From a virus (lineage: Duplodnaviria; Heunggongvirae; Uroviricota; Caudoviricetes): a stretch of 35,076 bases of DNA. Below the pieces are notes generated by a model that was given only the letters and a program-made list of their open reading frames with translations, was not told the origin of the DNA and searched no databases. Below, piece by piece: positions 9,505 through 32,920 of the stretch. Location of the stretch: the IMG/VR virus record IMGVR_UViG_2606217118_000004. One strand, 5' to 3'. The stretch's first letter is position 1. Each line of letters begins with the position of its first letter. A program made the translations under genes and the position numbers.

Positions 9505-11271
9505 ATGAACACCACACTGACACCCGCAGATCTCGATCCCCGTCGGCAGGCCATGCTGCTGTACTTTCAGGGATACCGCGTAGCCCGCATTGCTGAAATG
9601 CTGGGCGAGAAAGTTGCAACCGTTCACAGCTGGAAAAAACGCGACAAGTGGGGTGACTATGGGCCGCTGGATCAGATGCAGCTCACCACCGCCGCACGCT
9701 ACTGCCAGCTCATTATGAAGGAGCACAAAGAAGGGAAAGATTTCAAAGAGATTGATCTGCTGGCGCGCCAGTCGGAGCGCCATGCGCGGATCGGCAAGTT
9801 TAACAATGGCGGCAACGAAGCCGACTTAAACCCTAACGTCGCCAACCGCAACAAAGGCCCGCGTCGTCAGCCGGAAAAGAACGTTTTCACCGATGAACAG
9901 ATTGAGAAGCTGGAAGAAATCTTCCATTCCTCCATGTTCAACTATCAGCGCCACTGGTGGGAAGCCGGAAAAACCAACCGCATCCGCAACCTGCTGAAGT
10001 CACGCCAGATCGGTGCGACCTTTTACTTTGCCCGTGAAGCCCTGATTGACGCCCTGCTTACCGGACGTAACCAGATTTTCCTTTCTGCCAGTAAGGCACA
10101 GGCTCACGTCTTTAAGCAGTACATCATCGACTTCGCCAAAGAAGTGGAGGTGGAGCTGAAAGGCGATCCGATGGTGCTTCCCAACGGGGCCACACTGTAT
10201 TTCCTCGGCACCAATGCCCGCACGGCTCAGAGTTACCACGGCAACCTGTATCTGGATGAATATTTCTGGATACCGAAATTCCAGGAGCTGCGCAAAGTGG
10301 CTTCCGGTATGGCTATTCACAAGAAATGGCGACAGACCTATTTTTCCACGCCATCCAGCCTGACACACAGTGCTTATCCGTTCTGGTCCGGTGCGCTGTT
10401 CAACCGTGGGCGCAACAAAGCCGATAAGGTGGACATCGACCTGTCCCACAGCAATCTGGCCCCCGGCCTGCTGTGCGCAGACGGGCAATACCGCCAGATA
10501 GTCACCGTGGAAGATGCGGTACGCGGCGGCTGTAACCTGTTCGACCTCGACCAGTTGCGCATGGAGTACAGCCCGGACGAATACCAGAACCTGCTGATGT
10601 GCGAGTTCGTTGACGATCTCGCATCTGTGTTCCCGCTCAGCGAATTGCAGGCGTGCATGGTGGACAGCTGGGAAGTCTGGACCGACTTTCATGCACTGGC
10701 CCTGCGCCCGTTTGGCTGGCGCGAAGTGTGGATCGGTTATGACCCGGCAAAAGGTACGCAGAACGGCGACAGCGCCGGATGCGTGGTGGTGGCACCGCCA
10801 GCCGTGCCGGGTGGTAAGTTCCGCATTCTTGAGCGTCACCAGTGGCGCGGGATGGACTTCCGCGCCCAGGCTGACGCCATCAAAAAACTCACCGAACAGT
10901 ACAACGTTACGTATATCGGTATCGACTCGACCGGCGTTGGTCACGGGGTTTATGAGAACGTGAAAGCGTTCTTTCCTGCCGTCCGGGAGTTTGTCTATAA
11001 CCCCAATGTTAAAAATGCCCTGGTACTCAAGGCCTACGACATTATCAGCCACCGCCGTCTGGAGTTTGACGCCGGACACACCGACATTGCGCAGTCATTC
11101 ATGGCAATCCGTCGCGCAACCACCGCCAGTGGCAACCGCCCGACCTACGAAGCCAGCCGCAGCGAAGAAGCCAGCCATGCCGATCTGGCATGGGCAACCA
11201 TGCACGCACTGTTTAACGAACCGCTGCAGGGCGAGTCCGCCAATACCAGCAATATTGTGGAGATTTTTTGA
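9505..11271 (+). CDS. P: Terminase large (ATPase) subunit gpP
   Basis: 588-aa ORF with ATGA overlap to Q; size and divergent arrangement with O match P2. Confidence 0.85.
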   Translation: MNTTLTPADLDPRRQAMLLYFQGYRVARIAEMLGEKVATVHSWKKRDKWGDYGPLDQMQLTTAARYCQLIMKEHKEGKDFKEIDLLARQSERHARIGKFNNGGNEADLNPNVANRNKGPRRQPEKNVFTDEQIEKLEEIFHSSMFNYQRHWWEAGKTNRIRNLLKSRQIGATFYFAREALIDALLTGRNQIFLSASKAQAHVFKQYIIDFAKEVEVELKGDPMVLPNGATLYFLGTNARTAQSYHGNLYLDEYFWIPKFQELRKVASGMAIHKKWRQTYFSTPSSLTHSAYPFWSGALFNRGRNKADKVDIDLSHSNLAPGLLCADGQYRQIVTVEDAVRGGCNLFDLDQLRMEYSPDEYQNLLMCEFVDDLASVFPLSELQACMVDSWEVWTDFHALALRPFGWREVWIGYDPAKGTQNGDSAGCVVVAPPAVPGGKFRILERHQWRGMDFRAQADAIKKLTEQYNVTYIGIDSTGVGHGVYENVKAFFPAVREFVYNPNVKNALVLKAYDIISHRRLEFDAGHTDIAQSFMAIRRATTASGNRPTYEASRSEEASHADLAWATMHALFNEPLQGESANTSNIVEIF

Positions 11272-12311
11272 TGAAAGAACATATCGCGCCAGGCGAAACC
11301 GTAACTGCAGAAGAAACTAAAAAACCCGTTGCGGAGGCTTTCAGCTTTGGTGATCCCATTCCTGTACTGGACCGCCGCGAACTGCTGGACTATGTGGAAT
11401 GCGTACAGATGGATCGCTGGTATGAGCCGCCCGTCAGCTTTGACGGACTGGCGCGCACCTTCCGCGCCGCCGTGCACCACAGCTCCCCGATCAGTGTTAA
11501 GCGTGACATTATCAGCAGTACCTATATTCCACATCGCCTTCTCAGCCAGCAGGCATTTACCCGTTTTGTGCAGGACTATCTGGTTTTTGGTAACGCCTAC
11601 CTGGAGAAACGCACGAACCGCTTTGGTGAAGTTATTTCGCTGGAGCCTGCACTGGCAAAATACACCCGACGCGGGCTTGACCTTGAAACATACTGGTTTG
11701 TGCAATACAGCCTGACGACACAGCCGTATCAGTTCACAAAAGGTAACGTCTTCCACCTGATGGAGCCGGATATCAACCAGGAGATTTATGGTCTGCCGGG
11801 TTACCTTTCTGCCATTCCGTCAGCTCTGCTCAACGAATCCGCCACGCTGTTCCGCCGCAAGTATTACATTAACGGCAGCCACGCAGGCTTCATCATGTAC
11901 ATGACCGACGCCGCACAGAACCAGGAGGATGTGAACAACATCCGCAAGGCAATGAAAAGTGCTAAAGGACCGGGCAACTTCCGCAACCTGTTTATGTACT
12001 CGCCTAACGGCAAAAAAGATGGCATTCAGATTATCCCGTTGTCGGAAGTCGCGGCGAAGGATGAATTTCTGAACATCAAGAACGTCAGCCGCGATGACAT
12101 GATGGCGGCTCACCGCGTACCGCCGCAAATGATGGGCATCATTCCCAACAACACTGGCGGCTTTGGGGATGTGGAAAAAGCGAGCCGTGTCTTCGTCCGC
12201 AATGAACTGATGCCCCTGCAAAAGCGACTGCAGGAGCTGAATGACTGGCTGGATGAAGAGGTTATCCGTTTTGAAGCCTATGACTTAGGACTTAAGGGCA
12301 AACGAAGCTGA
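11268..12311 (+). CDS. Q: Portal protein gpQ
   Basis: 347-aa ORF, last gene before cos as in P2. Confidence 0.85.
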   Translation: MMKEHIAPGETVTAEETKKPVAEAFSFGDPIPVLDRRELLDYVECVQMDRWYEPPVSFDGLARTFRAAVHHSSPISVKRDIISSTYIPHRLLSQQAFTRFVQDYLVFGNAYLEKRTNRFGEVISLEPALAKYTRRGLDLETYWFVQYSLTTQPYQFTKGNVFHLMEPDINQEIYGLPGYLSAIPSALLNESATLFRRKYYINGSHAGFIMYMTDAAQNQEDVNNIRKAMKSAKGPGNFRNLFMYSPNGKKDGIQIIPLSEVAAKDEFLNIKNVSRDDMMAAHRVPPQMMGIIPNNTGGFGDVEKASRVFVRNELMPLQKRLQELNDWLDEEVIRFEAYDLGLKGKRS

Positions 12312-12471: not shown

Positions 12472-12490
12472 CTCGTATCCCCGCCACGCC
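12472..12490. other. cos-like site of the 186-like prophage (reverse complement GGCGTGGCGGGGATACGAG)
   Basis: First 13 nt GGCGTGGCGGGGA match the 186-type cohesive end as I recall it; located ~160 bp past the Q stop, where P2-family cos lies. Confidence 0.4.
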
Positions 12491-12696
12491 TGCCCGCTTT
12501 ATGTAGTGGTTTTCATGCGCCTGCATGACATAAGCAAAAGCCCGCCATTCCTGGCGGGCCTCAGCTAAAACGATCCTCAAACGATCATGCGGATTCATGC
12601 GGCATAGTCATGCAGCACAATTCCTTTGCCCCACTATATCCTTTGTGGCAGAAATTGAGGAAAATGATTCATAAATACTCATATTTCGGAGGATAT

Positions 12697-13596
12697 ATGG
12701 CAGTTCTATTTTTATTTGGCGCAGGTGCGAGTTTTGGCAGCGGTCCATGTAGTCCATCCAATCCACCTCTTGGTAAAGATCTGCTTATCCGCATGCGTGA
12801 AAAAGGTGGAGTTGCTTCAACTATTGATGGCGCTCTATTGGAGAGTTTCATTGCAGATCCTGAACAAGGAATGATTAATTTTTTCAATGAACGAAATTGC
12901 GAGACAACTCACCTCCTAAAGCAGATGTGCGCCTATCTTGCACAATTTCGGGTCGAGAAAGAAAACACCTACATAAAACTGTTTAACCTATTAAAAAAAA
13001 GAAAAAACATATGTATGGCAACAACTAATTACGACCTATTAATTGAACAAGCTATATGCTCTGTTGGCTGTCTTGTTCAATATCACTCATCGAAGCGCAA
13101 TAGAAATAACATACCGGTATTAAAAATACATGGCTCAGTAAACTTCATACCAGTTGCAAATATCGTTAATATCGATTTCGAATTACCTGATTGCGAGAAC
13201 TCTGCAATATTCGATGGTCCAATTGATATTTACAACGATGAGCAAGACGTGATTGCATACTGCGAAAGTGATTCTGCCCTCTCACCCGCAGTTGCATTAT
13301 ATCATCCCAAAAAAAGCGTATTGCACTGCCCCTCATTTGTTAAGTATCAGCAGGAAGAGTTTCGTTCTGAGGTTGAACGTTCATCCAAGATATTCATTAT
13401 TGGACTTAAAATAAATCCAAATGATGAGCATATTTGGTCTGAAATTGAAAAAACTTCAGCCGACGTCTACATAGTAGACAAGGATAAAGAATCTACTATC
13501 ACCTGGGTTAATAGCTTGAGCAAAAAGAACATTTACCACATAGCTGATACTTTTGATGAATCGATTGTGAGAATTAAAAACATTCTGCAATTATAG
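12697..13596 (+). CDS. Standalone SIR2-like (ThsA-type) NADase-domain protein; candidate anti-phage cargo in the cos-A hotspot
   Basis: ORF track 12610..13596; start placed at the Met with a GGAGG RBS (MAVLFLFGAGAS...). Ordered motifs GAGAS, TTNYDLLIE, KIHGS and IFIIGLKINPNDEHI follow the SIR2_2/ThsA pattern. Visibly AT-rich; opposite strand to flanking phage genes. Confidence 0.6.
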   Translation: MAVLFLFGAGASFGSGPCSPSNPPLGKDLLIRMREKGGVASTIDGALLESFIADPEQGMINFFNERNCETTHLLKQMCAYLAQFRVEKENTYIKLFNLLKKRKNICMATTNYDLLIEQAICSVGCLVQYHSSKRNRNNIPVLKIHGSVNFIPVANIVNIDFELPDCENSAIFDGPIDIYNDEQDVIAYCESDSALSPAVALYHPKKSVLHCPSFVKYQQEEFRSEVERSSKIFIIGLKINPNDEHIWSEIEKTSADVYIVDKDKESTITWVNSLSKKNIYHIADTFDESIVRIKNILQL

Positions 13597-13700
13597 ATAA
13601 CAAAACCATTATAAAGTACCAATGATGGGCTAACGCCTCGCCCCGCTCGTTGTTCAACCTTGCTGGCGTCAGTATCAAGTCCTGCCGCCAGCAACGTTCC

Positions 13701-13934
13701 TCAGTGCAGCCAGCTGTCGTCTTCCCAAACCTGCTGCATAATTTCCATTACCCGCTTTTTGTCTTCATCAAGCTTTAAGCCACTCAGCTCAACGCCGTTT
13801 GCCGACCCTTTACGGATGCGAATAGCTGTCTTTGGATAGATGGGCTGCAGGTTGCGGTAAAGCTCGGACTCCAGAGCGTCCAGGGTTACCTGGCTAATCT
13901 TTTGCTCTTTATCGATCATTATCTCAATTCGCAT
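13701..13934 (-). CDS. DinI-family protein
   Basis: 77 aa beginning MRIEIMIDKEQ... with ...KRVMEIMQQVWEDDSW near the C-terminus, resembling E. coli DinI; downstream of a LexA box. Confidence 0.7.
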   Translation of the reverse strand: MRIEIMIDKEQKISQVTLDALESELYRNLQPIYPKTAIRIRKGSANGVELSGLKLDEDKKRVMEIMQQVWEDDSWLH

Positions 13935-13942
13935 AGGGACCC

Positions 13943-14131
13943 CTAACTGGAAATATCCATTGATCGGCTGTATTCATGGCTACGAATTTTCGCCATCAGC
14001 TCATCGGTCAACTCAGAAGCCCACTGAAGAGCCAGCTGCTTTTCTGCATCATCACACTCGCTAGCCGCTACAAGCTTGATAAAAAAATCAATGCGCTGGA
14101 GCTTCAAAGACTCCAAAAGGTAATCCTGCAT
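13943..14131 (-). CDS. Small hypothetical protein, first gene of the LexA-box operon (possible Tum-like antirepressor component)
   Basis: ORF track 13943..14146 begins at a GTG; the ATG at 14131 (MQDYLL...) has a GGAGGG RBS. Sits ~50 bp downstream of the LexA box and is closely followed by the DinI-like gene. Confidence 0.45.
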   Translation of the reverse strand: MQDYLLESLKLQRIDFFIKLVAASECDDAEKQLALQWASELTDELMAKIRSHEYSRSMDISS

Positions 14132-14180
14132 TTTCCCTCCTATCACTACTACTGGACAAACATAACTGTATGTATATCCA

Positions 14181-14196
14181 CTGTTTATATATACAG
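14181..14196. promoter_or_regulatory. LexA (SOS) box CTGTTTATATATACAG
   Basis: Exact CTGT-N8-ACAG with an AT-only spacer, embedded in ACTGTTTATATATACAGTAT; a CTGT half-site lies just upstream at 14166-14169. Confidence 0.6.
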
Positions 14197-14287
14197 TATA
14201 GAAGAGATTTCTATTTGTAAAACCCTTTTTTCAATTTCAATCAGATACCTCTGATGGGATCACCAAACAGGAATATTCAGACGATAC

Positions 14288-16675
14288 TCACGAATACCAC
14301 TGCCGCCATTTATCATCTTCCTGTAGCCGCTGGTTGCGGTAGAAAATGCGCAGCCCGGCCCCGGACGGAATGCTGCCGCCACGTAAAAGCAGATCCACCT
14401 CTGTTTCACTCGCTTCAAACCCTCTGGACCTCAACTCAGCGTCGAGCTGCTGGCGCTGCTGCTCGTTAACTTCCTGTTTGTACCCTTTCCGCCGTTTCGG
14501 TTTTACCAGCCTCAGCCTGGCTGTCAGCTCCCGCCGTTCCTTCGCACTCAGATCGTGAAGGTCGGGCAGCGCGTCAGTTTCTTCGGTTTCTGGTAATTCG
14601 CCCCCTGATTGGTTCAAAATTTCAACAGGGGGACAGTTATTGCCACGAGTCCAAGGGGCGCAAGCGCCCTGGTCGGCAGCCGCCTCCTGAACGTCAACGG
14701 CCTTACGAACCATTTTCCACTTCACTGCATGAGTGCAGATCTTGCCCTCTGCAATGGGTGACCAGATGCCATAAATACGAATACCGTGATCGCCATAGGC
14801 GGTTGGCTCTTCGTTGATTTCATAAGCGGTTCTGATGAGGTGATATTTGCGGGGAACCAGTACGCCGCCCTGCTTCATGATGTAGGTGGCAAAACAACCA
14901 GCATCAGCAGCAGCCAGGATGGCATCAAGGCGCGGGTTATCCAGTACCGGCGCACCTGCTTTTTTGTCACCCTGTTGCCTTGCCGCCTGACCAGCCAGCA
15001 ATCGCAGTTCACGGTAAGCCTGACGCCCCGGAATGCCAAAGAAGCGGAATTGCTGAACACGATGCAGAGACGCCCAGGCATTAACGTATTCAGCGTTATC
15101 ACGCAGGGATTTACCCGTTTCCTTACTGATCTCGCCAGCCAGACCACGCCCGTCAATATTCTTACTGATATATTTCGCAATGTAGCTTGTCGGCGTTCCT
15201 TTGCGCGGGTTTATCAGCTCAGACTTAAAGCGTGGCCCCGTGTTATTGCCCAGCTCCTCGCGGTCTTCTCGGATGGCAAACTTACGCAACAATGCAGTAA
15301 TGGCGCGGCGGTCTTTTTTGCGCATGAAACACAACAGGTGCCAGTGAACTGTGCCGTCATGATGCGGCTCAGCCACCCGCACGCCATACCAGCGCAACCC
15401 GGCTTTGTGCATAGCCTTACGAAATGCAGCAAACATGCCGACCAGATAATCGCTGCTTTGTCTTACTGTCGCGTTGGTCCAGGTCGGGTTTGGCCTGCCG
15501 TTATTTAGCGTGGAATGGAAACGTGACGGACAGGTGATGGTGTAGAAAACGGCGCAGTCACCACGCATTTCCGCGATAAGCTCCAGGCCTTTAACACAGG
15601 CCATCATCTCGTTGCGGCGATGCGCCGGGTTGCTGCTGCTGGCGTTTACCACATCCTCCATGTTCAGCGTGTCGCCGTCTTCGTTCACCAGTTCATGAGA
15701 ACGGAAAAACTCCAGCGACTTACGGCGCTGCTCACGTTTATGCATCACGGCTTCATAGCTGACATAGGGAGATGCTTTTTTGCTGACCAGGCAGACAGCA
15801 CGCAACTGCTCTTCCCGCCATTCGCAACGCATCTTCCATAATTTCCGATACCACCAGTCGGCGCACAGCATACGCGCCAGCGAACCCGGAATGAGTTCAT
15901 AAGGCACAGGTTTGCGGCGGTTTCTTTTCCGGCGGAGTTGCTCAAACGCAGGCGGTATGACATCCAGTCGCAGGGTTTCTGCAGCCACCTTTTCCCATGT
16001 CTTGCGGATTTCTTCTGGCTTAACATCATCGGAGGCGTACAAATCACCACAAGCGGCATCAAGACACATGCTCATATGCGCAGCGACAAGGGTAGACAGG
16101 CGTTTCACCTGATCCTGACTCATTTCAGGCAGGATCAGCAGACCGTCCAGCCCTTCATGGCTTGCCATAAAACGAAAAGATGCAGATAGCTGGCTGTCGC
16201 GTATATGCTCCAGTCGTTCCAGACATGGCTTAATCGTCTCACGCAAATAGCGGGAATAAGCCTTTGGCCTGCCCAGGCTGCTGAAATATTCAATACGTTG
16301 CATCAGCGGCTTGCTGATATGGGAAGGCTGGGCGTTGACGTCAGCCAGAATGACCATGTCTGGATTAAAACGCTGCTGCTCATGCGCCATCTTTGCCCGG
16401 CTAATGAGCTTATCCTGCTCCATTTCGCGTTGGACAGGATCACGGGATTCATTAAAGAAATAACGCTCCCAGACCTGATCACTCAGTGCCTCGCGGCGCA
16501 GTTGTTCCTGCTCGTTATCGGTAGCGTACAGAGTGATCAGGTTTGAAAGCGCAGAAACCGGCGCAACTTCCGCCGGGTCCAGATAAGGGTTAATGGCCTT
16601 TTTCGGGCTGTTCCATGAGAATGCTGCGGCGACCTTGTTAAAGCCGCTGCAGTTGTTCATATCAGCATGGCTCAT
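14288..16675 (-). CDS. A: Replication initiation endonuclease gpA (HUH rolling-circle initiator)
   Basis: 795-aa ORF with HUH-like motif (TVHWHLL) and paired tyrosines (YIAKYISK); P2-family position. Confidence 0.85.
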
Positions 16676-19711: not shown

Positions 19712-20350
19712 TTGATTATGAGTTTAATCAAGGCGGGGAATGATAGTGGTGGGCGCGATGCGATTAATAGGCTTATTAAGGCTTACAACTTCAGCTCACG
19801 ACAGCAGCTCTGCGAACATCTGGAAGTATCAAAAAGCACTATGGCTAACAGATACTTAAGGGATAGCTTTCCTGCCGAATGGGTAATCCAATGTGCCCTT
19901 GAAACAGGAGCTTCCCTTCTATGGCTGGCTACTGGTCAAGGAGATATGTATGCGTGTGAGAACGAAGAAATAAATCTCAAAAATGAACCTCCCGTCACTG
20001 TAAGACCACTTTCTAAGATCGTTGCTCCTAGCATCAAACGTGTTGAACTGAAGAACGGCGAACTGCAGCCAAGTGATGAAATTCTTCTTGATAGCAGCCT
20101 GCTCGATGGTGACTCATCCAACGCTTTATTTGTTAAAACAGCTAATGATAGCTTTGTAGTGGATACGTCTGTTAAACAAGTCAGTAATGGCTTCTGGTTA
20201 GTCGATATGGACGGAGTTAAAAGCATCGTCAAAATTGCGCGCATACCCGGAAACAAAATAGTAGTTAACCAAGATGACACTTCATTTGAATGTTCTGTAG
20301 ATGATGTGGAAGTCGTAGGACGTGCAGTCAAAGTAATCAAGAACCTCTAA
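19712..20350 (+). CDS. cI: CI-like immunity repressor (186 type, N-terminal helix-turn-helix)
   Basis: 212-aa ORF divergent from apl and directly upstream of int. Confidence 0.65.
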   Translation: MIMSLIKAGNDSGGRDAINRLIKAYNFSSRQQLCEHLEVSKSTMANRYLRDSFPAEWVIQCALETGASLLWLATGQGDMYACENEEINLKNEPPVTVRPLSKIVAPSIKRVELKNGELQPSDEILLDSSLLDGDSSNALFVKTANDSFVVDTSVKQVSNGFWLVDMDGVKSIVKIARIPGNKIVVNQDDTSFECSVDDVEVVGRAVKVIKNL

Positions 20351-20353
20351 CTT

Positions 20354-21394
20354 ATGACCATCAGAAAACAGCCGAACGGAAAATGGTTGTGTGAGTGCTA
20401 TCCCAATGGACGCAATGGTAAGCGCGTGCGTAAGCAATTTGCTACCAAAGGCGAAGCCATTGCGTTTGAAAGCTTCACAATGGAAGAAGTGAACAAAAAA
20501 CCATGGCTAGGGGAAAAGGAAGATCGGCGACATCTATCAGAATTAATTGAGCTGTGGTATTCCCTGTATGGTCAAACACTCGCAGACCCCAAGCGCCTCA
20601 TGGCGAAACTTAGAATTATCTGTAATGGTCTAGGCGATCCCATCGCCTCAGAACTGACAGCTGGTGAGTTTACGAAATACCGCGAAGCACGGTTAAAAGG
20701 TGAAGTACGAAATGAAGATGGCACGCTTATGTCGCCCGTTAAGCCCCGCACGGTAAATCTTGAACAGCGCAACCTATCATCTGTTTTTGGTACACTGAAA
20801 AAGCTGGGCCACTGGTCAGCCCCCAACCCGCTTGCTGGGCTGCCAACATTTAAAATTGCTGAGGGTGAATTGGCGTTCCTGACCCCGGAAGAAATTAAAC
20901 GTCTGCTGGATGCCTGTGCTGATTCTCAAAGCCCCAGTCTGCTGATGATTGCAAAAATATGCTTGGCCACCGGCGCACGCTGGAGCGAAGCCGAAAACTT
21001 ACAGAGTCATCAGGTATCAAAATACCGTATCACTTATACCAAGACTAAAGGAAAGAAAAACCGAACAGTGCCTATTTCAAAGGATTTATATGAAGAACTG
21101 CCTAAGAATAGGGGAAAATTATTTACACCTTGTAGGAAAGCTTTTGAACGTGCGGTTAAACGAGCTGGTATCGAGCTACCAGAAGGGCAATGCACACACG
21201 TATTACGACATACATTTGCAAGTCACTTTATGATGAATGGCGGAAACATACTGGTGCTGCGCGATATTCTGGGCCATGTCGATATAAAAATGACAATGAT
21301 TTACGCCCACTTCGCTCCCGACCATCTGGAAGATGCTGTAACCAAAAATCCTCTTGCTAACCTTGGATGGAGAAAATTAGAAAGTGCTTGTTAA
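20354..21394 (+). CDS. int: Tyrosine integrase (P2/186 type)
   Basis: 346 aa; C-terminal catalytic signature HVLRHTFAS ... LGH ... MIYAH. Confidence 0.85.
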   Translation: MTIRKQPNGKWLCECYPNGRNGKRVRKQFATKGEAIAFESFTMEEVNKKPWLGEKEDRRHLSELIELWYSLYGQTLADPKRLMAKLRIICNGLGDPIASELTAGEFTKYREARLKGEVRNEDGTLMSPVKPRTVNLEQRNLSSVFGTLKKLGHWSAPNPLAGLPTFKIAEGELAFLTPEEIKRLLDACADSQSPSLLMIAKICLATGARWSEAENLQSHQVSKYRITYTKTKGKKNRTVPISKDLYEELPKNRGKLFTPCRKAFERAVKRAGIELPEGQCTHVLRHTFASHFMMNGGNILVLRDILGHVDIKMTMIYAHFAPDHLEDAVTKNPLANLGWRKLESAC

Positions 21395-21500
21395 TAACTA
21401 TATCCAACAATACCCATGGATATCGTACTTACTTATCATAATATATTTTATATATATATGCCTTGAATTATATCTATGCGTATCAAAAAAAGGCTTTAAC

Positions 21501-22430
21501 ATGGATGAAAGGCCATTAACAAGTCAATACTTATTTAAACAATCACTTAGGATTCCTGTATTTTCAGCGATATACTTTGGTATATTTTCCTGGCTTGGAC
21601 ATTCCCCTCAATTTGATAGTGAGGGCTTTAATAATTTCATTGCAATTAGCAAGCTTCCTATCGCCTTACTTTCTTTGTCCATACCATTTGTTGCTGTCGT
21701 AGCAAACATACACCGCACAGTTCAAACAAACCGACAAATTGAGGAAACCAAGCAAAAGAATCTATCTGATAGCTACTATAGCCATCTAAAGTTCGTTACT
21801 GATTATTTCACCAATTTACCTAACAAAACCATTAAACGCGAACGTCATTATGGTACTAAAGAGATAAGTTATAAAATTAACTACCCAATACATCTATATA
21901 GATATATTTTCATAAATAGCTCACCAGAGAAGGGACGGCCTAAAAATACAGATAAAGAATACATACGTGAAGTAAATAATCACTGGGTTGATATACTAAA
22001 AAACCTAGAGAAGATAAATTCATCTAATCGTGGCTCTCAGTTTGACGAAGTTTTAATCCGTCAAATGCAATCTCTTCATTCAATAGAAAAACACTTATCC
22101 GAACTTAATCGAATGCTTTGCCTAACTCCCATGGAGTTAAATGAACATGCAACTTTATACTTTGATGGATATGAAATGATTACTAACTTCATGTCCAGCA
22201 TTGAACTTGGCGATACAATTGAAACCTACTTCAAATTTACCATTGATATTCTTGATATTACCGATAATTTCCTTTCATTCAAGGATGATGGCTCGTCTGG
22301 GCAAATCATTATACTAGCAAGATTACTGAAAGATAATAATCCAGCTATCTTTGATGAAATTGTAACAAACAAAGGGAAGGCTCAACCTTCGTTGACCTAC
22401 AATGGCGACAGATTGGCGACAGAGCATTAA
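21501..22430 (+). CDS. AT-rich hypothetical membrane-anchored protein; cargo gene between int and attR
   Basis: Track 21384..22430; the first 39 codons overlap int, so start placed at MDERPLTSQ. Two predicted transmembrane helices then a ~240-aa soluble domain; composition visibly AT-rich. Confidence 0.5.
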   Translation: MDERPLTSQYLFKQSLRIPVFSAIYFGIFSWLGHSPQFDSEGFNNFIAISKLPIALLSLSIPFVAVVANIHRTVQTNRQIEETKQKNLSDSYYSHLKFVTDYFTNLPNKTIKRERHYGTKEISYKINYPIHLYRYIFINSSPEKGRPKNTDKEYIREVNNHWVDILKNLEKINSSNRGSQFDEVLIRQMQSLHSIEKHLSELNRMLCLTPMELNEHATLYFDGYEMITNFMSSIELGDTIETYFKFTIDILDITDNFLSFKDDGSSGQIIILARLLKDNNPAIFDEIVTNKGKAQPSLTYNGDRLATEH

Positions 22431-22744: not shown

Positions 22745-23938
22745 GTGGCAAGAACGACACGCCCCCTGACCAACACAGAGGTTCTGCGCGCTAAAGCGTT
22801 AGAAAAGGATCTAACGTTGCATGATGGCGATGGTCTTTTTCTGCTCGTTAAAACGAACGGTAAGAAGTTATGGCGTTTCCGTTATCAACGTCCAGCAACA
22901 AAGCAGCGAACAATGATGGGGCTAGGTGCCTTCCCCACCCTTTCACTTGCTGACGCCCGACGGTTAAGAGCGAATTACCTTTCCTTGTTAGCCAACGGAA
23001 TTGACCCGCAAATTCAAGCTGAAATTGCAGAGGAACAGCAGCAAATCGCACTGGACAGTATTTTTTCAACCGTCGCCGCTAACTGGTTCCAGCTTAAAAG
23101 CAAAAGCGTTACCCCTGATTACGCGAAAGACATTTGGCGTTCACTAGAAAAAGATGTATTCCCTGCCATCGGTGAGATCCCAGTTCAGCAAATCAAAGCC
23201 CGAATGCTTGTTGAAGCCCTAGAGCCTATCAAAGCACGTGGGGCGCTAGAGACGGTACGTCGTCTGGTGCAGCGTATTAATGAGATAATGATTTACGCCG
23301 TAAACACAGGTCTGATTGATGCCAATCCAGCATCAGGTATTGGGATGGCCTTTGAGAAACCTAAAAAGCAAAACATGCCTACGCTCCGGCCAGAAGAATT
23401 ACCGAAGCTGATGCGTTCTTTGATTATATCTAATCTGTCTGTTCCGACACGTTGTCTTATTGAGTGGCAACTACTGACCCTTGTACGCCCTTCTGAAGCC
23501 TCTGGTACTCGGTGGGCAGAGATCAATCTCGATGCAAAGCTCTGGACGATTCCAGCCGAACGGATGAAGGCCAAACGTGAGCACATTGTTCCTCTATCTC
23601 CTCAGGCATTAGAAATTCTGGAAGTGATGAAACCAATCAGTGCTCATCGTGAACATGTTTTTCCGAGCAGAAATGACCCTAAACTGCCAATGAATAGCCA
23701 GACTGCTAATGCAGCATTAAAACGTATTGGATATGGTGGAAAACTTGTCGCACATGGTATGCGTTCAATTGCCAGTACAGCGATGAACGAGGCAGGTTTA
23801 AATCCAGATGTGATTGAATCAGCATTGGCACATACCGATAGAAATGAAGTAAGAAAAGCATACAATCGCACCACCTATCTGCCACAGCGAATAACACTTA
23901 TGAATTGGTGGGGAGATTTTGTAAGGAACCTTAAATAA
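22745..23938 (+). CDS. int: P4/CP4-57-type tyrosine integrase
   Basis: 397 aa; located ~185 bp downstream of the ssrA 3' end, the arrangement I recall for intA of CP4-57. Confidence 0.85.
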   Translation: MARTTRPLTNTEVLRAKALEKDLTLHDGDGLFLLVKTNGKKLWRFRYQRPATKQRTMMGLGAFPTLSLADARRLRANYLSLLANGIDPQIQAEIAEEQQQIALDSIFSTVAANWFQLKSKSVTPDYAKDIWRSLEKDVFPAIGEIPVQQIKARMLVEALEPIKARGALETVRRLVQRINEIMIYAVNTGLIDANPASGIGMAFEKPKKQNMPTLRPEELPKLMRSLIISNLSVPTRCLIEWQLLTLVRPSEASGTRWAEINLDAKLWTIPAERMKAKREHIVPLSPQALEILEVMKPISAHREHVFPSRNDPKLPMNSQTANAALKRIGYGGKLVAHGMRSIASTAMNEAGLNPDVIESALAHTDRNEVRKAYNRTTYLPQRITLMNWWGDFVRNLK

Positions 23939-23986
23939 TATATATTCATCTAATTAGCGCCCTTATCAAGTTAGGGCGCGATTAAC

Positions 23987-24490
23987 TTAAAGAAGTTTCA
24001 TTGTTTTCATTGTATCTTTAAAATCCTTAAATCCATCAAATAAAATGATGAAATTTGCTAGCGTCACCGATGGAGCATCAATAGTCATACTAGTACCTTT
24101 TATAAAGGTATGAGCGGCAGCATTTCTTGGGGTCTTGAGTGATGTCAAAGTGGCTTTTAATGTAAAAAGTTTTTGTTGTGTTGCTTGTTTTTCAATTTTT
24201 TCAATTGAGCTCAATCCTATAACTTGGGCTAACATTTTTTTAAAATTGTCCTCATAATGGAAATTATAATTCCGTTTTATTTCATTTTGGATTTTTTTTA
24301 TGTGTTCAGGGTTAGTTATATTTTTTTTACAAACTCCTTCAATTATGTTATCCATGGTTACCTCTATCCATCCGCACAACTCCATAAGAGCAAGCTTAGA
24401 ATAAAACAACTGTTTTTTAGGATCGGTTTCCTTAGTAAAGAGGCGATCTAACTCTTTCAATGTTTTATGAATTGTCCCCTTAACTATCAT
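23987..24490 (-). CDS. HEPN-domain protein (predicted RNase), second gene of the hotspot operon
   Basis: Track 23987..24502 begins at a TTG; the ATG at 24490 lies 4 nt after the DUF262 stop. Candidate Rx4H HEPN motif in ...TPRNAAAHTF...; AT-rich. Confidence 0.55.
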   Translation of the reverse strand: MIVKGTIHKTLKELDRLFTKETDPKKQLFYSKLALMELCGWIEVTMDNIIEGVCKKNITNPEHIKKIQNEIKRNYNFHYEDNFKKMLAQVIGLSSIEKIEKQATQQKLFTLKATLTSLKTPRNAAAHTFIKGTSMTIDAPSVTLANFIILFDGFKDFKDTMKTMKLL

Positions 24491-24494
24491 GATT

Positions 24495-25589
24495 TCACCC
24501 AAATATTCTTAGAGCGGCATCTAACCTTGCGTCAACTTTTTCCTTACTGGCTACACCACCGCTCAGAAAAGCCGTTGATAATGAATTATCTGCCCTTAAA
24601 TCATCAAAACGCTGGCTTAAACTAGCGCTAGTTTCTTGCTCTAAAAGATCAATATTTTTTGCTACACCATATAAAAGGGCTTCCATTAAAGAACTACCAA
24701 GTCTCATTGGATTGGGTTGTAATATTTTATTCCACACCAGACCTACGGTCCTCTTAAATAAATCCTCTTTTAGAGCTATATCTGACTTTCCTAAATGACG
24801 GTTTTTCTTCATATAGCCATTGAGAAATTTAGATAAAGTGCCTTTATACTTATCTTTGTTATCGTAAAATGAGAAAAATCGCAAGATAAGTTCGATATAC
24901 TTAAACCTATTCGAATTCTTGGTATTCAAGCCAGCTATTTTTTGCCACTCATCAATTTCATTCATTTCTTTGAGGGCATTATTAAACTCACCGCTAAAAA
25001 TACAATTCCTAATTTCTTGGTTATTAAGTCTTGTGCCTCCAGAATTCAACCGATGAAATATAGTAAACAAATACTCCATATGTGATAGTTTAGAATGATC
25101 ACATCTAAGCACAGTGACTGGAATTGTTAAGTTTTGCACTCTCTTATAAAAATTATTCAATTCAGTCTTTTGTTTATGAAACTCTGATACACGAACACCA
25201 GATATTTTACTATCAATATCATCGAGCTTAGACAGTTGCCAGCTTGGGTCAGATAAAAATCTGATTATTGACGTCATTCGCTGCAACCCATCAATTACCT
25301 GCCATTCCTGACTATTATAATCAAAACTAAAACACATGCTAGGAATAGGAAGCTGTTTAATTAAGGAGTCAATAAATCGTGTTTGAGCTGATGAATTCCA
25401 TACAATGTCTCTTTGAAAATCTGGTTGAATATTCAAAGTTCCTTCATTGTACATGCGAACTAAATCAGAGCAGGATCTCAACTCATTATAGGCAATCACA
25501 TCACTTGGCGGATGTTGCTCACTATCATCTTCATAATAAGATTCATCTTCTAAATTCTCAATATCTTCAAGAGTAATGTCAGCAGTCAT
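24495..25589 (-). CDS. DUF262 (ParB-like NTPase domain) protein, first gene of the hotspot operon
   Basis: Track 24495..25622; start placed at MTADITLEDIE (GGAG RBS with 5-nt spacer). DUF262 signature motifs QPDFQRDIVW, VIDGLQR and FHRLNSGG; no HNH/DUF1524-like nuclease motif seen. Confidence 0.65.
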   Translation of the reverse strand: MTADITLEDIENLEDESYYEDDSEQHPPSDVIAYNELRSCSDLVRMYNEGTLNIQPDFQRDIVWNSSAQTRFIDSLIKQLPIPSMCFSFDYNSQEWQVIDGLQRMTSIIRFLSDPSWQLSKLDDIDSKISGVRVSEFHKQKTELNNFYKRVQNLTIPVTVLRCDHSKLSHMEYLFTIFHRLNSGGTRLNNQEIRNCIFSGEFNNALKEMNEIDEWQKIAGLNTKNSNRFKYIELILRFFSFYDNKDKYKGTLSKFLNGYMKKNRHLGKSDIALKEDLFKRTVGLVWNKILQPNPMRLGSSLMEALLYGVAKNIDLLEQETSASLSQRFDDLRADNSLSTAFLSGGVASKEKVDARLDAALRIFG

Positions 25590-25906
25590 ATAATCTCCAA
25601 TATGAAATTTAAAAAAGCTCATCTATCCTTTAGATGAGCAAATAGAACTTCCTTTCATCTGCAACTCGATAATATTTAACTATCGCCTTGCAAACTCCCA
25701 CTAATTTTAGCGGCATTGTTACCCTGGTTCAATTAATTATTTCCCCCCCCATTTGCTGCACTTTCACTGAGCATCGCCCCCAACACAAAAAGCCCAAACA
25801 AAAGCGTATGAAAAAATGAGGCTTTCAAGCAAAATTATAGCTTGAGTTTGTTCATCCAAAAGCGACTTCGCATGTATTAGAAAATTCAGCATATACATTG
25901 CGCGCA

Positions 25907-25925
25907 GTGCTTTCCCCGCCTCGCC
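25907..25925. other. Satellite cos site (reverse complement GGCGAGGCGGGGAAAGCAC)
   Basis: Exact 19-nt match to the P2/P4 cohesive-end sequence as I recall it; lies between the hotspot cargo and psu. Confidence 0.7.
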
Positions 25926-26089
25926 CGCCCGCTTTGCGGGGCGGGTTTAATGCAGTTTCACTGACACGCTCAGGCCGCGCCGGGAATGGCGCGGTCTGCA
26001 GAAAATGAGGCAGGAAAACGCATGCAAAGCCATGCACCTTATCGATGCATGGCTTTTTTCAGTAAAAACGGGCGGATTTTCGGGGAGTT

Positions 26090-26662
26090 TTACACAGACT
26101 GATGTGATGCCAGTTGCGCACTTTTACGCGAAAAAATCATGTTCTGCGCAGGAGTGAATTTTTCACGGCTGTCATCCACCGAAGCCGCGTCAGGCCTGAA
26201 TCCGATGGCCGTTAAAATGTCGCTATCCTGTGCGGAATAATTAATTTTTTCCCCCTTCGCAAGCCAGGACAGAAGGGCTTCACGCAGGGCATCTGTGGCA
26301 CACTGTATGGCACAGTTTCGGGCAATGGCCGTCAGTTCACTGTAGCCCATCAGCTCCGGTGCCAGTGCGGCCGCCAGTACTGTGCCGTGCTGCTGCATAA
26401 AATCATTCAGCCGGTCGCGGATGCTGATGTGCTGAACGGCTTCATGCGAACGAATATAACGACCGGCGGCCTGATTCACCTGCCATTTTCTGACTTCGAT
26501 AATATTGCGTAATTCGTCCAGGCGACTGACGTTTCTGCCTTCTCCTGACAGAAGCCGCAGATATTCCTGTTCGGCCGCAGCCAGCTCATTTTTGCGTTGC
26601 AGCCATGCTGCTTTGTTATTCTGACAGGTGTCAAAGGCCTGCTGTAAGGCAGTGCTTTCCAT
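26090..26662 (-). CDS. psu: Polarity suppression protein Psu
   Basis: 190 aa, the P4 Psu size; last gene of the psu-delta-sid operon, adjacent to cos. Confidence 0.8.
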   Translation of the reverse strand: MESTALQQAFDTCQNNKAAWLQRKNELAAAEQEYLRLLSGEGRNVSRLDELRNIIEVRKWQVNQAAGRYIRSHEAVQHISIRDRLNDFMQQHGTVLAAALAPELMGYSELTAIARNCAIQCATDALREALLSWLAKGEKINYSAQDSDILTAIGFRPDAASVDDSREKFTPAQNMIFSRKSAQLASHQSV

Positions 26663-26735
26663 CGTTATCTCTTTCTCATCATGCTGAAGAATAAAAATAC
26701 GGTGTGCGGCGACGGCCGGGGTTAACCGGCAGCCC

Positions 26736-27236
26736 TCATTCCAGACGCAGCGAATATGATTGTGTTTTTAAGCGTACTGGCGGCAGTTCCTGTTTTTCAT
26801 GCAGGCTTTCTGCCAGTTCGTCCGGCGTGACCGGGCGGACAATAAAACGGTTGATGGTCTGAAGCGTTTTAAACACCAGACCACAGCCCGGATCCGTGCA
26901 CACATAAAAACGCTCGGTGACTTCCTGAGACAGACGCCGCGATGTTCTTGACAGTGCAAGGCCTTTACATCTCCGACAACAATATCCGGTAACAAGCATT
27001 CTTTTCTGGCGTTTCATACTGCCGGAGGCTGACGTCAGTGAATCGCGGTATCTCTGTTTGCCTGAAATGTATTCCATTCCTGAATCTTTACAGTCAGAGA
27101 AAAAGCTTTCACTCGCTTCAAATGTCGCAGAGCAATAAATATTCCGGCACTGTGCAATCATTATCTTGGTGCCATCGTCCATGAAATGTGCGCGACGGGT
27201 GTGAGCAACATGTCCACACGACGGGCAGTAAATCAT
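26736..27236 (-). CDS. delta: Delta late transcription activator (tandem Ogr-type zinc fingers)
   Basis: 166 aa; two Ogr-like cysteine clusters (MIYCPSCGH...QCRNIYC and YCCRRCKG...CTDPGCG). Confidence 0.8.
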   Translation of the reverse strand: MIYCPSCGHVAHTRRAHFMDDGTKIMIAQCRNIYCSATFEASESFFSDCKDSGMEYISGKQRYRDSLTSASGSMKRQKRMLVTGYCCRRCKGLALSRTSRRLSQEVTERFYVCTDPGCGLVFKTLQTINRFIVRPVTPDELAESLHEKQELPPVRLKTQSYSLRLE

Positions 27237-27967
27237 GACAGCAGTCCTCTGGCCTTAAGCTCTGCACCCTGCTGGTCTATTTTGTCCTGCCACACCTTGC
27301 GCTGTGCCGGTGTGCCTGCCACCTCATAATCCATGTGCGGGAGTGTTGCCGCTGACAGTCCGGTCAGCCGGAGAACCGGCTCGCCGGTGAGGCTGATTTG
27401 CATCTGTTTAATTTTCTGTTCCAGCGATGATTTCACCTGCTGCATGACAGCCTTTTCCGGTGCGACGTAGCCCTGATGGCCGGTGGTGTTGGCGAGCGGA
27501 TTTTCCTGTACCAGAATGCTCAGATGCATTGCCCGGACAAGCGCCTCACAGGTTTCATTCAGGGCGTGTTCCAGCTCATGCTCTGCATACAGACTCAGAA
27601 GGTGATAATGTGCCTTCCGGTAGGCGGTGGCCGTGCTGTCACACGCCCCTTTCAGGCGTTCACGTTCGAAATTCAGCACCACGGCCAGATTGTCATATTC
27701 CTGTACCAGCTCCCGGCGTGCCACGCGCTCAATGTGGCGCTGTTTCAGCTCGTCGCTCAGGACACCACCGGCTGCACGAAAGGCCGTGCGCCAGTCGTCA
27801 GCGTCGTTTCCGTCGGCCTGCGTCAGCGCATTTTTTTCCTGCTCTGCCCGTTCAATGGCCGTGACGGTCTCATCCATCAGGCGGGCGTTCTCAAGGTGGG
27901 CGGCTCTGGCCTTTTCCAGTTGTGCCAGTGCGGGTTGCAGATATTCAGGGATGGTGTTGTCAGACAT
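27233..27967 (-). CDS. sid: Capsid size determination protein Sid
   Basis: Track 27233..28033; the internal ATG at 27967 (MSDNTIPEY...) has a GAGGAG RBS and gives 244 aa, the P4 Sid size. Confidence 0.75.
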   Translation of the reverse strand: MSDNTIPEYLQPALAQLEKARAAHLENARLMDETVTAIERAEQEKNALTQADGNDADDWRTAFRAAGGVLSDELKQRHIERVARRELVQEYDNLAVVLNFERERLKGACDSTATAYRKAHYHLLSLYAEHELEHALNETCEALVRAMHLSILVQENPLANTTGHQGYVAPEKAVMQQVKSSLEQKIKQMQISLTGEPVLRLTGLSAATLPHMDYEVAGTPAQRKVWQDKIDQQGAELKARGLLS

Positions 27968-28039
27968 TTTCCGGCTCCTCGTCACTTCAGGTTGAGAAAA
28001 TTGTGACGTACACCGGACAGCAACACGACGCATTGCAGA

Positions 28040-28057
28040 TGTGCCAGCCCTGACACA
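28040..28057. promoter_or_regulatory. TGT-N12-ACA dyad (TGTGCCAGCCCTGACACA), candidate Delta/Ogr site of the sid late promoter
   Basis: Dyad lies ~80 bp upstream of the sid start, consistent with a -55 activator site. Confidence 0.45.
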
Positions 28058-28136
28058 GGAGACTCATCCTCAGACCGGCAAGCCAGGAAAAGGTCGCAGG
28101 AAAAACCGGCTTACTGTTTGTTTTTTTATATTTTAC

Positions 28137-28240
28137 TGTTCACCTCTGTTCACCTTAAGAAAAAAGATAAGTAATACAGTAAGTTAAAGGGTGAACAATC
28201 GCAGTAATGACTGTTCACCGTCTGTTCACCACTGTTCACC
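28137..28240. repeat. Cluster of six TGTTCACC octamer iterons (one inverted); candidate satellite ori
   Basis: Octamers at about 28137, 28147, 28190 (inverted), 28212, 28223 and 28233; the same octamer recurs in the crr repeats after alpha. Confidence 0.55.
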
Positions 28241-28785: not shown

Positions 28786-28878
28786 TGATGCCCGCTCTGC
28801 AAAAACTCCCTTTTTCTGGCTTGCCTTTTTCCGGCATTTGCGGATATAGTTTTTCCGCTGCCGCAAAATCGGCAGCCG

Positions 28879-29173: not shown

Positions 29174-29183
29174 GGCTGCCATC

Positions 29184-30565: not shown

Positions 30566-30579
30566 AGGAGAACAACACC

Positions 30580-32913: not shown

Positions 32914-32920
32914 CCCACCT

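What the first reader, a model, noticed from the sequence alone, without database searches (positions are those of the whole stretch)
13701..14200. Consensus LexA box driving a small operon that ends in a DinI-like gene (Tum-like SOS induction module)
CTGTTTATATATACAG at 14181-14196 is a textbook CTGT-N8-ACAG SOS box. It lies ~50 bp upstream of a 62-67 aa ORF followed closely by a DinI-family gene, between replication gene A and cos. Phage 186 has a LexA-controlled tum antirepressor operon in the corresponding place, and as far as I recall 186 Tum has a DinI-like C-terminal half, so here the module may be split into two genes. This would couple prophage induction to DNA damage.
Basis: partly seen in the sequence, partly recalled or inferred. 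Interest (0 to 1): 0.5.

Follow-up and report, generated by a model that had tools for sequence, protein, structure and literature searches.

The report
LexA-controlled split Tum antirepressor operon
This is the DNA-damage switch of a Fels-2/186-like prophage of E. coli: a promoter shut off by the SOS repressor LexA drives a small anti-repressor gene and a DinI-like gene. The arrangement is already described for phages PSP3 and Fels-2, so it is an ordinary though usually unannotated module.

Summary

- **Operon.** On the minus strand, a promoter (TTTACA, 17 nt, TACTGT) overlaps a near-consensus LexA box. It drives a 62-aa gene (14131 to 13943) and, 8 nt later, a 77-aa DinI-family gene (13934 to 13701). 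The operon lies between replication gene A and cos.
- **Homology.** Pairwise BLAST finds no similarity between the 62-aa protein and 186 Tum. Profile methods do: hhalign gives 96% probability (E = 2e-9) against the N-terminal antirepressor half of Tum and PSP3 TumA. The protein is 85% identical to Fels-2 STM2728.
- **Target.** The same prophage has a 186-type CI/Apl/CII switch. Its CI is 93% identical to Fels-2 CI.
- **Prior description.** The literature already states that Fels-2 and PSP3 have tum split into an antirepressor gene and a dinI-like gene.
The operator is double. A second box (14166-14181) shares one base pair with the first, as in colicin promoters. It is present in 57 of 68 distinct relatives.
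- **Conservation.** Distant family members without dinI still keep a LexA box.
- **Frequency.** About 20% of complete E. coli genomes carry a similar module, where the first gene is annotated "hypothetical protein".

The parts
14216..14221 (-). -35 hexamer TTTACA of the p95-like promoter
   Evidence: Read from the sequence. It lies 17 nt upstream of TACTGT and is almost invariant in 56 distinct relatives (about 2 bits per column). It corresponds in position to the annotated -35 of 186 p95.
14193..14198 (-). -10 hexamer TACTGT, which is also the left arm of LexA box 1
   Evidence: It is the same hexamer as the annotated -10 of 186 p95. The consensus promoter scan misses it because it matches TATAAT at only 3 of 6 positions.
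14181..14196 (-). LexA box 1, CTGTATATATAAACAG (the 20-mer is 14179-14198)
   Evidence: It is the only CTGT-N8-ACAG in the window. The 20-mer has 2 mismatches to the consensus, and no shuffle came within 3 mismatches of it. A box is present in 66 of 68 distinct upstream regions of relatives and in all 6 distant relatives examined.
14166..14181 (-). LexA box 2, GTGGATATACATACAG, sharing one G:C pair (14181) with box 1
   Evidence: The double pattern CTG-N10-CAG-N12-CAG occurs in 57 of 68 distinct relatives, including Fels-2. The TGG that starts box 2 is conserved at 1.7-2.0 bits. The 35-bp operator aligns with the operators upstream of colicin N and a colicin-like pore-forming (E1-type) gene on Col plasmids.
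14136..14140 (-). Shine-Dalgarno sequence GGAGG of the first gene
   Evidence: Read from the sequence. AGGAGGG is conserved in all relatives.
13943..14131 (-). tumA-like gene (62 aa plus stop): predicted antirepressor of the prophage CI
   Evidence: phrog_698 E = 5e-34. It is 85% identical to Fels-2 STM2728. hhalign against the 186 Tum N-half / PSP3 TumA family gives 96.2% probability, E = 2.3e-9. AlphaFold2 predicts a two-helix hairpin, pLDDT 89.
13701..13934 (-). tumB/dinI-like gene (77 aa plus stop)
   Evidence: Pfam DinI E = 9e-24. It is 43% identical to 186 Tum residues 71-145. It matches PDB 1GHH, DinI, at E = 5e-9. It starts 8 nt after the tumA-like stop codon.
13660..13694 (-). GC-rich hairpin 7 nt after the dinI-like stop codon; a possible end of the operon, uncertain
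   Evidence: The fold shows a 9-bp stem plus an inner 3-bp stem. No U-tract follows, so it is not a canonical intrinsic terminator.
19712..20350 (+). 186-type CI immunity repressor, the presumed target of the antirepressor
   Evidence: Pfam Phage_CI_repr E = 8e-33 and Phage_CI_C E = 1e-40, with no Peptidase_S24. It is 93% identical to Fels-2 CI and 32% to 186 CI. It matches PDB 2FJR, 186 CI, at E = 3e-28.
14288..16675 (-). Replication gene A (context; upstream neighbour of the operon)
   Evidence: A 795-aa ORF. RefSeq annotates it 'replication endonuclease'. Fels-2 has the same order, gpA-like protein then STM2728.
12472..12490 (-). cos cohesive-end sequence of this prophage (context)
   Evidence: GGCGTGGCGGGGA is an exact match to the start of the 186 cos.

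Best explanation
This is the SOS induction operon of a Fels-2/186-type temperate phage integrated in an E. coli chromosome.

In an undamaged lysogen, LexA occupies a 31-bp double operator. The operator covers the -10 hexamer and the transcription start of a sigma-70 promoter (TTTACA-17-TACTGT), so the operon is silent. DNA damage activates RecA and LexA cleaves itself. The promoter then fires and makes two small proteins.

The first is a 62-aa helical hairpin homologous to the N-terminal half of 186 Tum and to PSP3 TumA. It is predicted to bind the prophage's 186-type CI repressor, which has no self-cleaving protease domain, and to keep it off its operators. That would let the early lytic promoter, Apl and the lytic cycle start.

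The second is a DinI-family protein corresponding to the C-terminal half of 186 Tum and to PSP3 TumB. It probably binds RecA filaments and tunes the SOS signal rather than being needed for induction.

Shown here: the sequence anatomy, the homologies, the conservation of the operator, and the co-residence of a 186-type CI. Inferred: LexA binding, the TumA-CI interaction, the role of the DinI-like protein, and the idea that two overlapping boxes give tighter, later-released repression than the single box of 186.
For: **Operator and promoter**
- The box is a near-consensus 20-mer that no shuffle came close to. It overlaps the same -10 hexamer, TACTGT, that is annotated for 186 p95.
- Of 68 distinct upstream regions from IMG/VR relatives, 57 carry the double operator, 9 a single box and 2 none.
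- Operator columns carry 1.6-1.7 bits, against 0.64 bits just downstream.
- Six independent distant family members (26-45% identical) each keep one near-consensus box 33-47 nt before the ATG, although they have no dinI gene.
- The double operator aligns with the operators upstream of colicin N and a colicin-like pore-forming (E1-type) gene. Colicin operators are reported to bind two LexA dimers (PMC2994835).

**First gene**
- hhalign against the Tum N-half/TumA family gives 96.2% probability, E = 2.3e-9 over 44 columns.
- PHROG cross-hits link the two families.
- It is 85% identical to Fels-2 STM2728, at the same map position.

**Second gene**
- DinI family.

**Target**
- CI has the two 186-CI Pfam domains and matches the 186 CI structure 2FJR. 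It is 93% identical to Fels-2 CI.

**Literature**
- 186 induction works through LexA-controlled p95 and the anti-CI factor Tum (PMC7708051).
- Fels-2 and PSP3 have tum split. [quoted passage not shown] PSP3 is annotated tumA, 'UV induction of prophage'.
Against: - There is no experimental data for this element or for its closest characterised relative at the protein level. The statement that the upstream half is the antirepressor rests on a personal communication about PSP3 quoted second-hand.
- PSP3 TumA is only about 19% identical to the window protein, and pairwise BLAST against 186 Tum finds nothing.
- The promoter is weak by consensus: the -10 matches at 3 of 6 positions, and the scan found no promoter.
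- Box 2 departs from the consensus at the key first position (GTG instead of CTG) and would probably need cooperative binding.
- Deletions of dinI homologues in Gifsy prophages had no effect on induction, so the DinI-like gene's contribution is unclear.
- I could not read Bunny et al. 2002, the primary Fels-2 paper.
Confidence: 0.85

Rival explanations
1. The operon is SOS-regulated, but the 62-aa protein is not the antirepressor of this prophage's CI. It might act on another target, such as a different prophage or the adjacent P4-like satellite. Or the operon might serve mainly to modulate the host SOS response through the DinI-like protein.
For: Function has not been shown for this subfamily. 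RefSeq calls the protein 'hypothetical protein'. Identity to 186 Tum and PSP3 TumA is only about 20%. Antirepressors can act in trans on other prophages (PMC3121763). A P4-like satellite lies next door.
Against: In every relative examined, the gene keeps the same position after gene A in P2/186-like phages. The window and Fels-2 both carry it together with a 186-type CI. Homology to the antirepressor half of Tum is significant at profile level. Distant relatives keep the LexA box and this gene but drop dinI, so the small gene is the conserved SOS output, not DinI.
Confidence: 0.1
2. The LexA-box match is fortuitous AT-rich sequence, and the two small ORFs are expressed constitutively or by read-through from gene A.
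For: CTGT-N8-ACAG alone is expected 0.44 times per window, and the loose double pattern 0.35 times. No strong terminator was found between A and the promoter, and the promoter scan found nothing.
Against: The 20-mer match was never approached in shuffles. The boxes are the best-conserved columns of the intergenic region across 56 distinct relatives. They recur upstream of 26-45% identical homologues whose flanks are otherwise unrelated. The layout copies the annotated 186 p95 promoter and LexA site.
Confidence: 0.03
3. The module is a relic. The prophage is defective, or the operon is no longer connected to the switch, so the sequence features are conserved by descent only.
For: Nothing in the sequence shows that this particular prophage is inducible. 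Two IMG/VR relatives have lost box 1 and the promoter.
Against: Both ORFs are intact with good ribosome-binding sites. CI, Apl, CII, Int, A, P and Q are all full length. The exact protein occurs on 132 contigs, and a similar module is found in 1060 of 5426 complete E. coli genomes.
Confidence: 0.05

Closest known systems
Salmonella phage Fels-2, STM2728 plus STM2726.1 (DinI family)
   Same: Same gene order: gpA, LexA operator, 62-aa gene, 77-aa dinI-like gene. The first protein is 85% identical and CI is 93% identical. Fels-2 has the same double overlapping operator, CTGTAAATATAAACAGTGGTTATATGTACAG. The literature describes Fels-2 as having tum split by a stop codon and as regulated by an antirepressor mechanism (PMC3121763).
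   Different: The host is E. coli rather than Salmonella. The gene after dinI differs: Fels-2 has STM2726 on the same strand, whereas the window has a convergent SIR2-like ORF.
Phage PSP3 tumA / tumB
   Same: A split operon at the same map position behind a LexA box. It is annotated tumA ('similar to 5' end 186 tum; UV induction of prophage') and tumB (DinI-like). The two families are homologous at profile level.
   Different: PSP3 TumA belongs to a different subfamily (phrog_1993 rather than phrog_698) and is about 19% identical. PSP3 has a single LexA box.
Coliphage 186 SOS operon (p95-tum-orf97)
   Same: A LexA-repressed promoter with -10 TACTGT inside the box, located between A and cos. 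An antirepressor acts on a 186-type CI, and there is a DinI-like moiety.
   Different: In 186 the two moieties are fused into one 146-aa protein. There is a single LexA box. An orf97 follows that has no counterpart here.
Colicin operon SOS operators (for example colicin N, colicin E1 type)
   Same: Two 16-bp LexA boxes share one base pair, with near-identical sequence: TACTGTATATAAAACCAGTGGTTATATGTACAGT in the colicin plasmids against TACTGTATATATAAACAGTGGATATACATACAGT here. Colicin operators are reported to bind two LexA dimers and give very tight repression (PMC2994835).
   Different: They control a toxin/lysis operon on plasmids, not a prophage switch. No coding similarity was found or expected.
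Gifsy-prophage dinI-gfoA/gftA operons and the N15 AntC antirepressor
   Same: [quoted passage not shown]
   Different: In the Gifsy prophages the gene order is reversed (dinI first). They are lambdoid phages with different repressor families. Homology to the window protein was not tested.

Membership tests
186-type SOS induction operon (Tum / TumA-TumB) | A LexA operator overlaps the promoter of the operon | tested here: met
   Box 1 overlaps -10 TACTGT exactly as in the annotated 186 p95. It is conserved in 66 of 68 distinct relatives and in 6 of 6 distant ones.
186-type SOS induction operon (Tum / TumA-TumB) | Location between replication gene A and cos of a P2/186-like phage | tested here: met
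   Gene A is at 14288-16675, the operon at 13701-14221 and the cos core at 12478-12490.
186-type SOS induction operon (Tum / TumA-TumB) | The first product is homologous to the N-terminal (antirepressor) half of 186 Tum | tested here: met
   BLASTP is negative. hhalign gives 96.2% probability, E = 2.3e-9. The 186 Tum N-half hits phrog_698 at 6e-6, and the window ORF hits phrog_8554 at 1e-8 and phrog_1993 at 5e-3.
186-type SOS induction operon (Tum / TumA-TumB) | A DinI-like moiety follows, either fused or as a separate gene | tested here: met
   Pfam DinI scores 84 bits against a cut-off of 24.2. It is 43% identical to Tum residues 71-145.
186-type SOS induction operon (Tum / TumA-TumB) | A cognate 186-type CI repressor without an autocleavage domain in the same phage | tested here: met
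   Phage_CI_repr plus Phage_CI_C, with no Peptidase_S24 at E <= 0.01. It matches 186 CI structure 2FJR at E = 3e-28.
186-type SOS induction operon (Tum / TumA-TumB) | The product binds CI and prevents operator binding; the prophage is induced by DNA damage in a lexA- and recA-dependent way | not testable with these tools
   This needs reporter, binding and induction experiments. It is known for 186 (PMC7708051) and asserted for PSP3 and Fels-2 (PMC3121763).
DinI family (Pfam PF06183) | Full-length match to the DinI profile above the gathering score, with the acidic C-terminal helix | tested here: met
   Pfam E = 9e-24 over residues 15-76. Alignment to DinI 1GHH covers residues 1-75 and includes EIMQQVWEDDSW against EILQETWESADDW.
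Chromosomal DinI equivalog (NCBIfam NF007893) | Score above the curated equivalog cut-off (111 bits) | tested here: not met
   It scores 52.7 bits. It is therefore a phage DinI-family paralogue, not the host dinI orthologue.
Colicin-type double SOS operator | Two 16-bp LexA boxes overlapping by one base pair | tested here: met
   CTGTATATATAAACAG and GTGGATATACATACAG share the G at 14181. The operator aligns with colicin N and colicin E1-type operators.
Colicin-type double SOS operator | Cooperative binding of two LexA dimers, giving tight repression and delayed induction | not testable with these tools
   This is inferred by analogy with colicin operators (PMC2994835).

The most novel reading that the evidence does not exclude
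Fels-2-type tum promoters, including this one, use a colicin-type operator that binds two LexA dimers, where phage 186 and PSP3 use a single box. Prophage induction in this lineage would then be a high-threshold, late SOS function with very low spontaneous firing. The near-identity of the 35-bp operator to Col-plasmid operators hints at exchange or convergent selection of a ready-made tight SOS switch. Independently, the LexA box plus the small helical-hairpin gene, not dinI, is the conserved core of the module across P2-like phages.
Probability: 0.55. Interest if true: 0.3.

Novelty: new member of a known kind. Interest (0 to 1): 0.2.

Why it matters
The module tells us how this E. coli prophage, and similar modules in about one fifth of complete E. 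coli genomes, are likely to respond to DNA-damaging antibiotics. A LexA-controlled antirepressor would act, not repressor cleavage.

In practice, the 62-aa gene is labelled "hypothetical protein" (or wrongly "levan regulatory protein") in public annotation. It could be renamed TumA-like antirepressor.

The double colicin-like operator suggests that this lineage sets a higher induction threshold than phage 186. That bears on spontaneous induction rates and on phage-mediated gene transfer. None of this changes the current understanding of how such switches work.

Tried and rejected
- **BLASTP.** The 62-aa ORF against 186 Tum gave no alignment even at E <= 100. Profile methods overturned it.
- **Promoter and terminator scan.** It found no promoter in 13500-14400. 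Its single terminator-like hit (13880-13893, plus strand) lies inside the dinI-like gene and was ignored.
- **Pfam, NCBIfam and PADLOC.** None has a model for the 62-aa protein.
- **Sequence search of the PDB.** The family profile found nothing.
- **Structure search.** Foldseek of the AlphaFold model against the PDB gave only generic helical hairpins with E > 1.
- **Search of 1.84 billion representative proteins.** I looked for fused TumA-DinI proteins in this subfamily. All 86 clusters are short stand-alone proteins, apart from mis-called or chimeric ORFs (P0145, P0156) and a spurious HEAT-repeat protein (P0171).
- **The search for related loci.** I used the look-up of encoding contigs instead.
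- **Bunny et al. 2002 (the Fels-2 / lexA paper).** It could not be read by DOI or PMC id. A literature search for 'TumA/TumB/PSP3' returned nothing.
- **CI as a LexA-like self-cleaving repressor.** A weak PHROG 'UmuD-like' hit (E = 0.018) suggested this. I rejected it because Pfam assigns the region to the 186 CI C-terminal domain (E = 1e-40) and finds no Peptidase_S24.
- **186 orf97 and Fels-2 STM2726.** They are not similar to each other, and neither has a counterpart in the window.

Full report
**What is in the sequence**

The window carries a P2/186-like prophage whose conventional rightward direction is the window's minus strand. The layout is as follows:

| Feature | Coordinates (strand) |
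|---|---|
| Terminase P | 9505-11271 (+) |
| Portal Q | 11268-12311 (+) |
| SIR2-like ORF | 12610-13596 (+) |
| DinI-like gene | 13934 to 13701 (-) |
| 62-aa gene | 14131 to 13943 (-) |
| Replication gene A | 16675 to 14288 (-) |
| Dam methylase | 17589 to 16672 (-) |
| cII | 19326 to 18817 (-) |
| apl | 19601 to 19359 (-) |
| cI | 19712-20350 (+) |
| int | 20354-21394 (+) |

A 186-like cos core, GGCGTGGCGGGGA, lies at 12478-12490. The 701 bp around the finding are 100% identical to the chromosome of E. coli strain 22AR0750.

**Checking the observation**

- CTGTTTATATATACAG is at 14181-14196 and is the only CTGT-N8-ACAG in the window. That loose pattern is expected 0.44 times by chance, so it proves nothing alone.
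- The 20-mer differs from the LexA consensus TACTGTATATATATACAGTA at only two positions. No dinucleotide-preserving shuffle produced a match within three mismatches.
- Read on the minus strand, the region is TTTACA, 17 nt, TACTGTATATATAAACAGTGGATATACATACAG, about 25 nt, AGGAGGGAAA, ATG.
- The -10 hexamer TACTGT is the left arm of the box. It is the same hexamer annotated as the -10 of the SOS promoter p95 in phage 186, where the LexA site likewise starts at the -10.
- The generic promoter scanner misses it because TACTGT matches TATAAT at only 3 of 6 positions.
- The ORF begins at the ATG at 14131 (62 aa), as in all homologues.
- The DinI-family gene starts 8 nt after its stop codon.

**A second box**

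Immediately after box 1, and sharing its last G (14181), lies GTGGATATACATACAG (14181 to 14166). I collected 80 related loci from IMG/VR, where at least 591 related stretches exist. They give 68 distinct upstream regions:

| Operator type | Distinct upstream regions |
|---|---|
| Double (CTG-N10-CAG-N12-CAG) | 57 |
| Single palindromic box | 9 |
| Promoter-proximal part lost | 2 |

Fels-2 itself has the double form. Phage 186 and PSP3 have one box.

Anchored on the operator, the two boxes average 1.6-1.7 bits per column, against 0.64 bits for the 25 nt downstream. The -35 TTTACA is nearly invariant. The CTG and CAG triplets are fixed by the anchoring, but the TGG of box 2 and the spacers are not.

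A BLAST search with the Fels-2 operator hit more than 1100 plasmid records, mostly small mobilisable plasmids. In the two I opened, the match lies about 40 nt upstream of colicin N and of a colicin-like pore-forming (E1-type) gene. The alignment shows essentially the same 35-bp double operator. Colicin operators of this design are reported to bind two LexA dimers and to give very tight repression (PMC2994835).

**The first gene**

- Pfam, NCBIfam and PADLOC have no model for it.
- BLASTP against 186 Tum finds nothing.
- It is, however, 85% identical to Fels-2 STM2728 and 87% to the SopEPhi homologue, at the same map position.
- In PHROGs it belongs to phrog_698 (E = 5e-34). It also hits phrog_8554 (E = 1e-8) and phrog_1993 (E = 5e-3).
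- PSP3 TumA defines phrog_1993. The N-terminal 70 residues of 186 Tum hit phrog_1993 (E = 1.5e-23), phrog_8554 (E = 3e-12) and phrog_698 (E = 6e-6).
- A profile of 33 diverse relatives of the window protein was compared with a profile of 23 Tum-N/TumA proteins. hhalign gave 96.2% probability, E = 2.3e-9 over 44 columns. The shared pattern runs E..(I/L).(R)(I/V)(E/D)...(R/K)L.......C...(D/E)(K/R)..A(L/I)...(A/S)E(L/I).
- AlphaFold2 predicts two long helices, residues 2-23 and 28-61, with pLDDT 89. No informative structural neighbour was found.

**The second gene and the target**

- The 77-aa protein is a DinI-family member (Pfam E = 9e-24). It is 43% identical to 186 Tum residues 71-145 and aligns end to end with E. 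coli DinI 1GHH. It scores below the NCBIfam cut-off for the chromosomal DinI orthologue.
- The prophage's repressor has both Pfam domains that match phage 186 CI and no S24 peptidase domain. It matches the 186 CI structure 2FJR. It is 93% identical to Fels-2 CI and 32% to 186 CI.
- Apl and CII homologues complete a 186-type switch.

**Conservation of the logic**

I located six independent distant relatives of the small protein (26-45% identical). They all sit between gene A and the ogr/portal genes of P2-like elements, mostly without any dinI gene. Each has one near-consensus LexA box (TACTGTAT....ATACAGT) 33-47 nt upstream of its start codon, although the surrounding DNA is unrelated. The conserved core is therefore LexA box plus small helical protein. 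DinI is an accessory that is separate in the Fels-2 and PSP3 types and fused in 186. In the search of 1.84 billion cluster representatives, no fused form turned up in this subfamily.

**Mechanism**

By homology with 186, the operon is silent while LexA is bound and is expressed when LexA is cleaved. In 186, SOS derepression of p95 yields the anti-CI factor Tum, which sequesters CI and derepresses pR (PMC7708051; annotation). Here the TumA-like protein would inactivate CI and the lytic programme would start. The DinI-like protein probably modulates RecA filaments. Deleting dinI homologues in Gifsy prophages had no measurable effect on induction (PMC3121763). The double operator plausibly makes induction tighter and later than in 186.

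All binding and induction steps are inferences. Only the anatomy, the homology and the conservation are shown here.

**Comparison with what is known, and novelty**

Lemire et al. 2011 state that Tum looks like a fusion of an antirepressor and DinI. [quoted passage not shown] The PSP3 record annotates tumA and tumB. The title of Bunny et al. 2002 attributes a lethal lexA-null phenotype to the Fels-2 prophage; I could not read the paper itself.

The window therefore holds an E. coli orthologue of a described module, which makes it a new member of a known kind. Three modest additions come from this work:
- The operator is of the double, colicin type in most of this lineage.
- LexA control is conserved across the whole TumA family, even where dinI is absent.
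- The gene is annotated "hypothetical protein". A similar module occurs in 1060 of 5426 complete E. coli genomes, and the exact protein is found on 132 contigs.

**Verdict**

Novelty and interest are low.

Noticed in passing
window 22745-33000: A P4-like satellite prophage lies directly beside the Fels-2-like prophage. It has an integrase (22745-23938, +), an exact P2-type cos GGCGAGGCGGGGAAAGCAC (25907-25925, -), psu (26090-26662, -), delta (26736-27236, -), sid (27233-28033, -) and an alpha-type primase (30580-32913, +). Its cos differs at 5 of 19 positions from the cos of the neighbouring prophage (12472-12490), so it may be matched to a P2-type helper rather than to its neighbour.
   Followed up: partly
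window 12610-13596 (+): A 328-aa ORF has weak SIR2-like matches (Pfam SIR2_2 E = 6e-5; PADLOC SIR2 E = 1e-5). It sits between cos and the dinI-like gene, convergent with the tum operon. 186 has orf97 and Fels-2 has STM2726 in that position. It is a candidate anti-phage defence cargo gene in the variable cos-proximal spot.
   Followed up: partly
window 23987-25622 (-): Two ORFs (171 aa and 375 aa; the second is phrog_2598, unknown function) lie between the integrase and cos of the P4-like satellite. They look like variable cargo and have no assigned function.
   Followed up: no
window 21384-22430 (+): A 348-aa ORF overlaps the end of the prophage integrase gene. It matches phrog_17460 (unknown function, E = 1e-156) and has a weak PADLOC '2TM effector' hit (E = 2e-4). 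It is probably a moron at the attachment-site end of the prophage.
   Followed up: no
L088-L097 (distant TumA relatives): In distant P2-like elements the TumA-like gene stands alone between gpA and ogr/portal, without any dinI gene. One element has a putative AbiC gene after it. Each keeps a single near-consensus LexA box 33-47 nt upstream.
   Followed up: yes
L008 and L016 (IMG/VR relatives), about 1100-1200: Two relatives keep only the right part of box 2. The sequence upstream, where box 1 and the -35/-10 should be, is replaced by unrelated GC-rich DNA. This suggests a rearrangement or insertion that disconnects the operon from its SOS promoter.
   Followed up: no
window 13660-13694: A GC-rich hairpin (9-bp stem) lies between the convergent dinI-like and SIR2-like genes. 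It has no U/T tract on either strand, so it is not a canonical intrinsic terminator.
   Followed up: partly
P0171 (1205-aa protein from the representative search): A NACHT/HEAT-repeat protein matches the TumA profile nine times. Its repeat 'AIDALVKLIADSNVDD' resembles 'RIDFFIKLVAASECDD'. I judged this a spurious helical-repeat similarity.
   Followed up: partly
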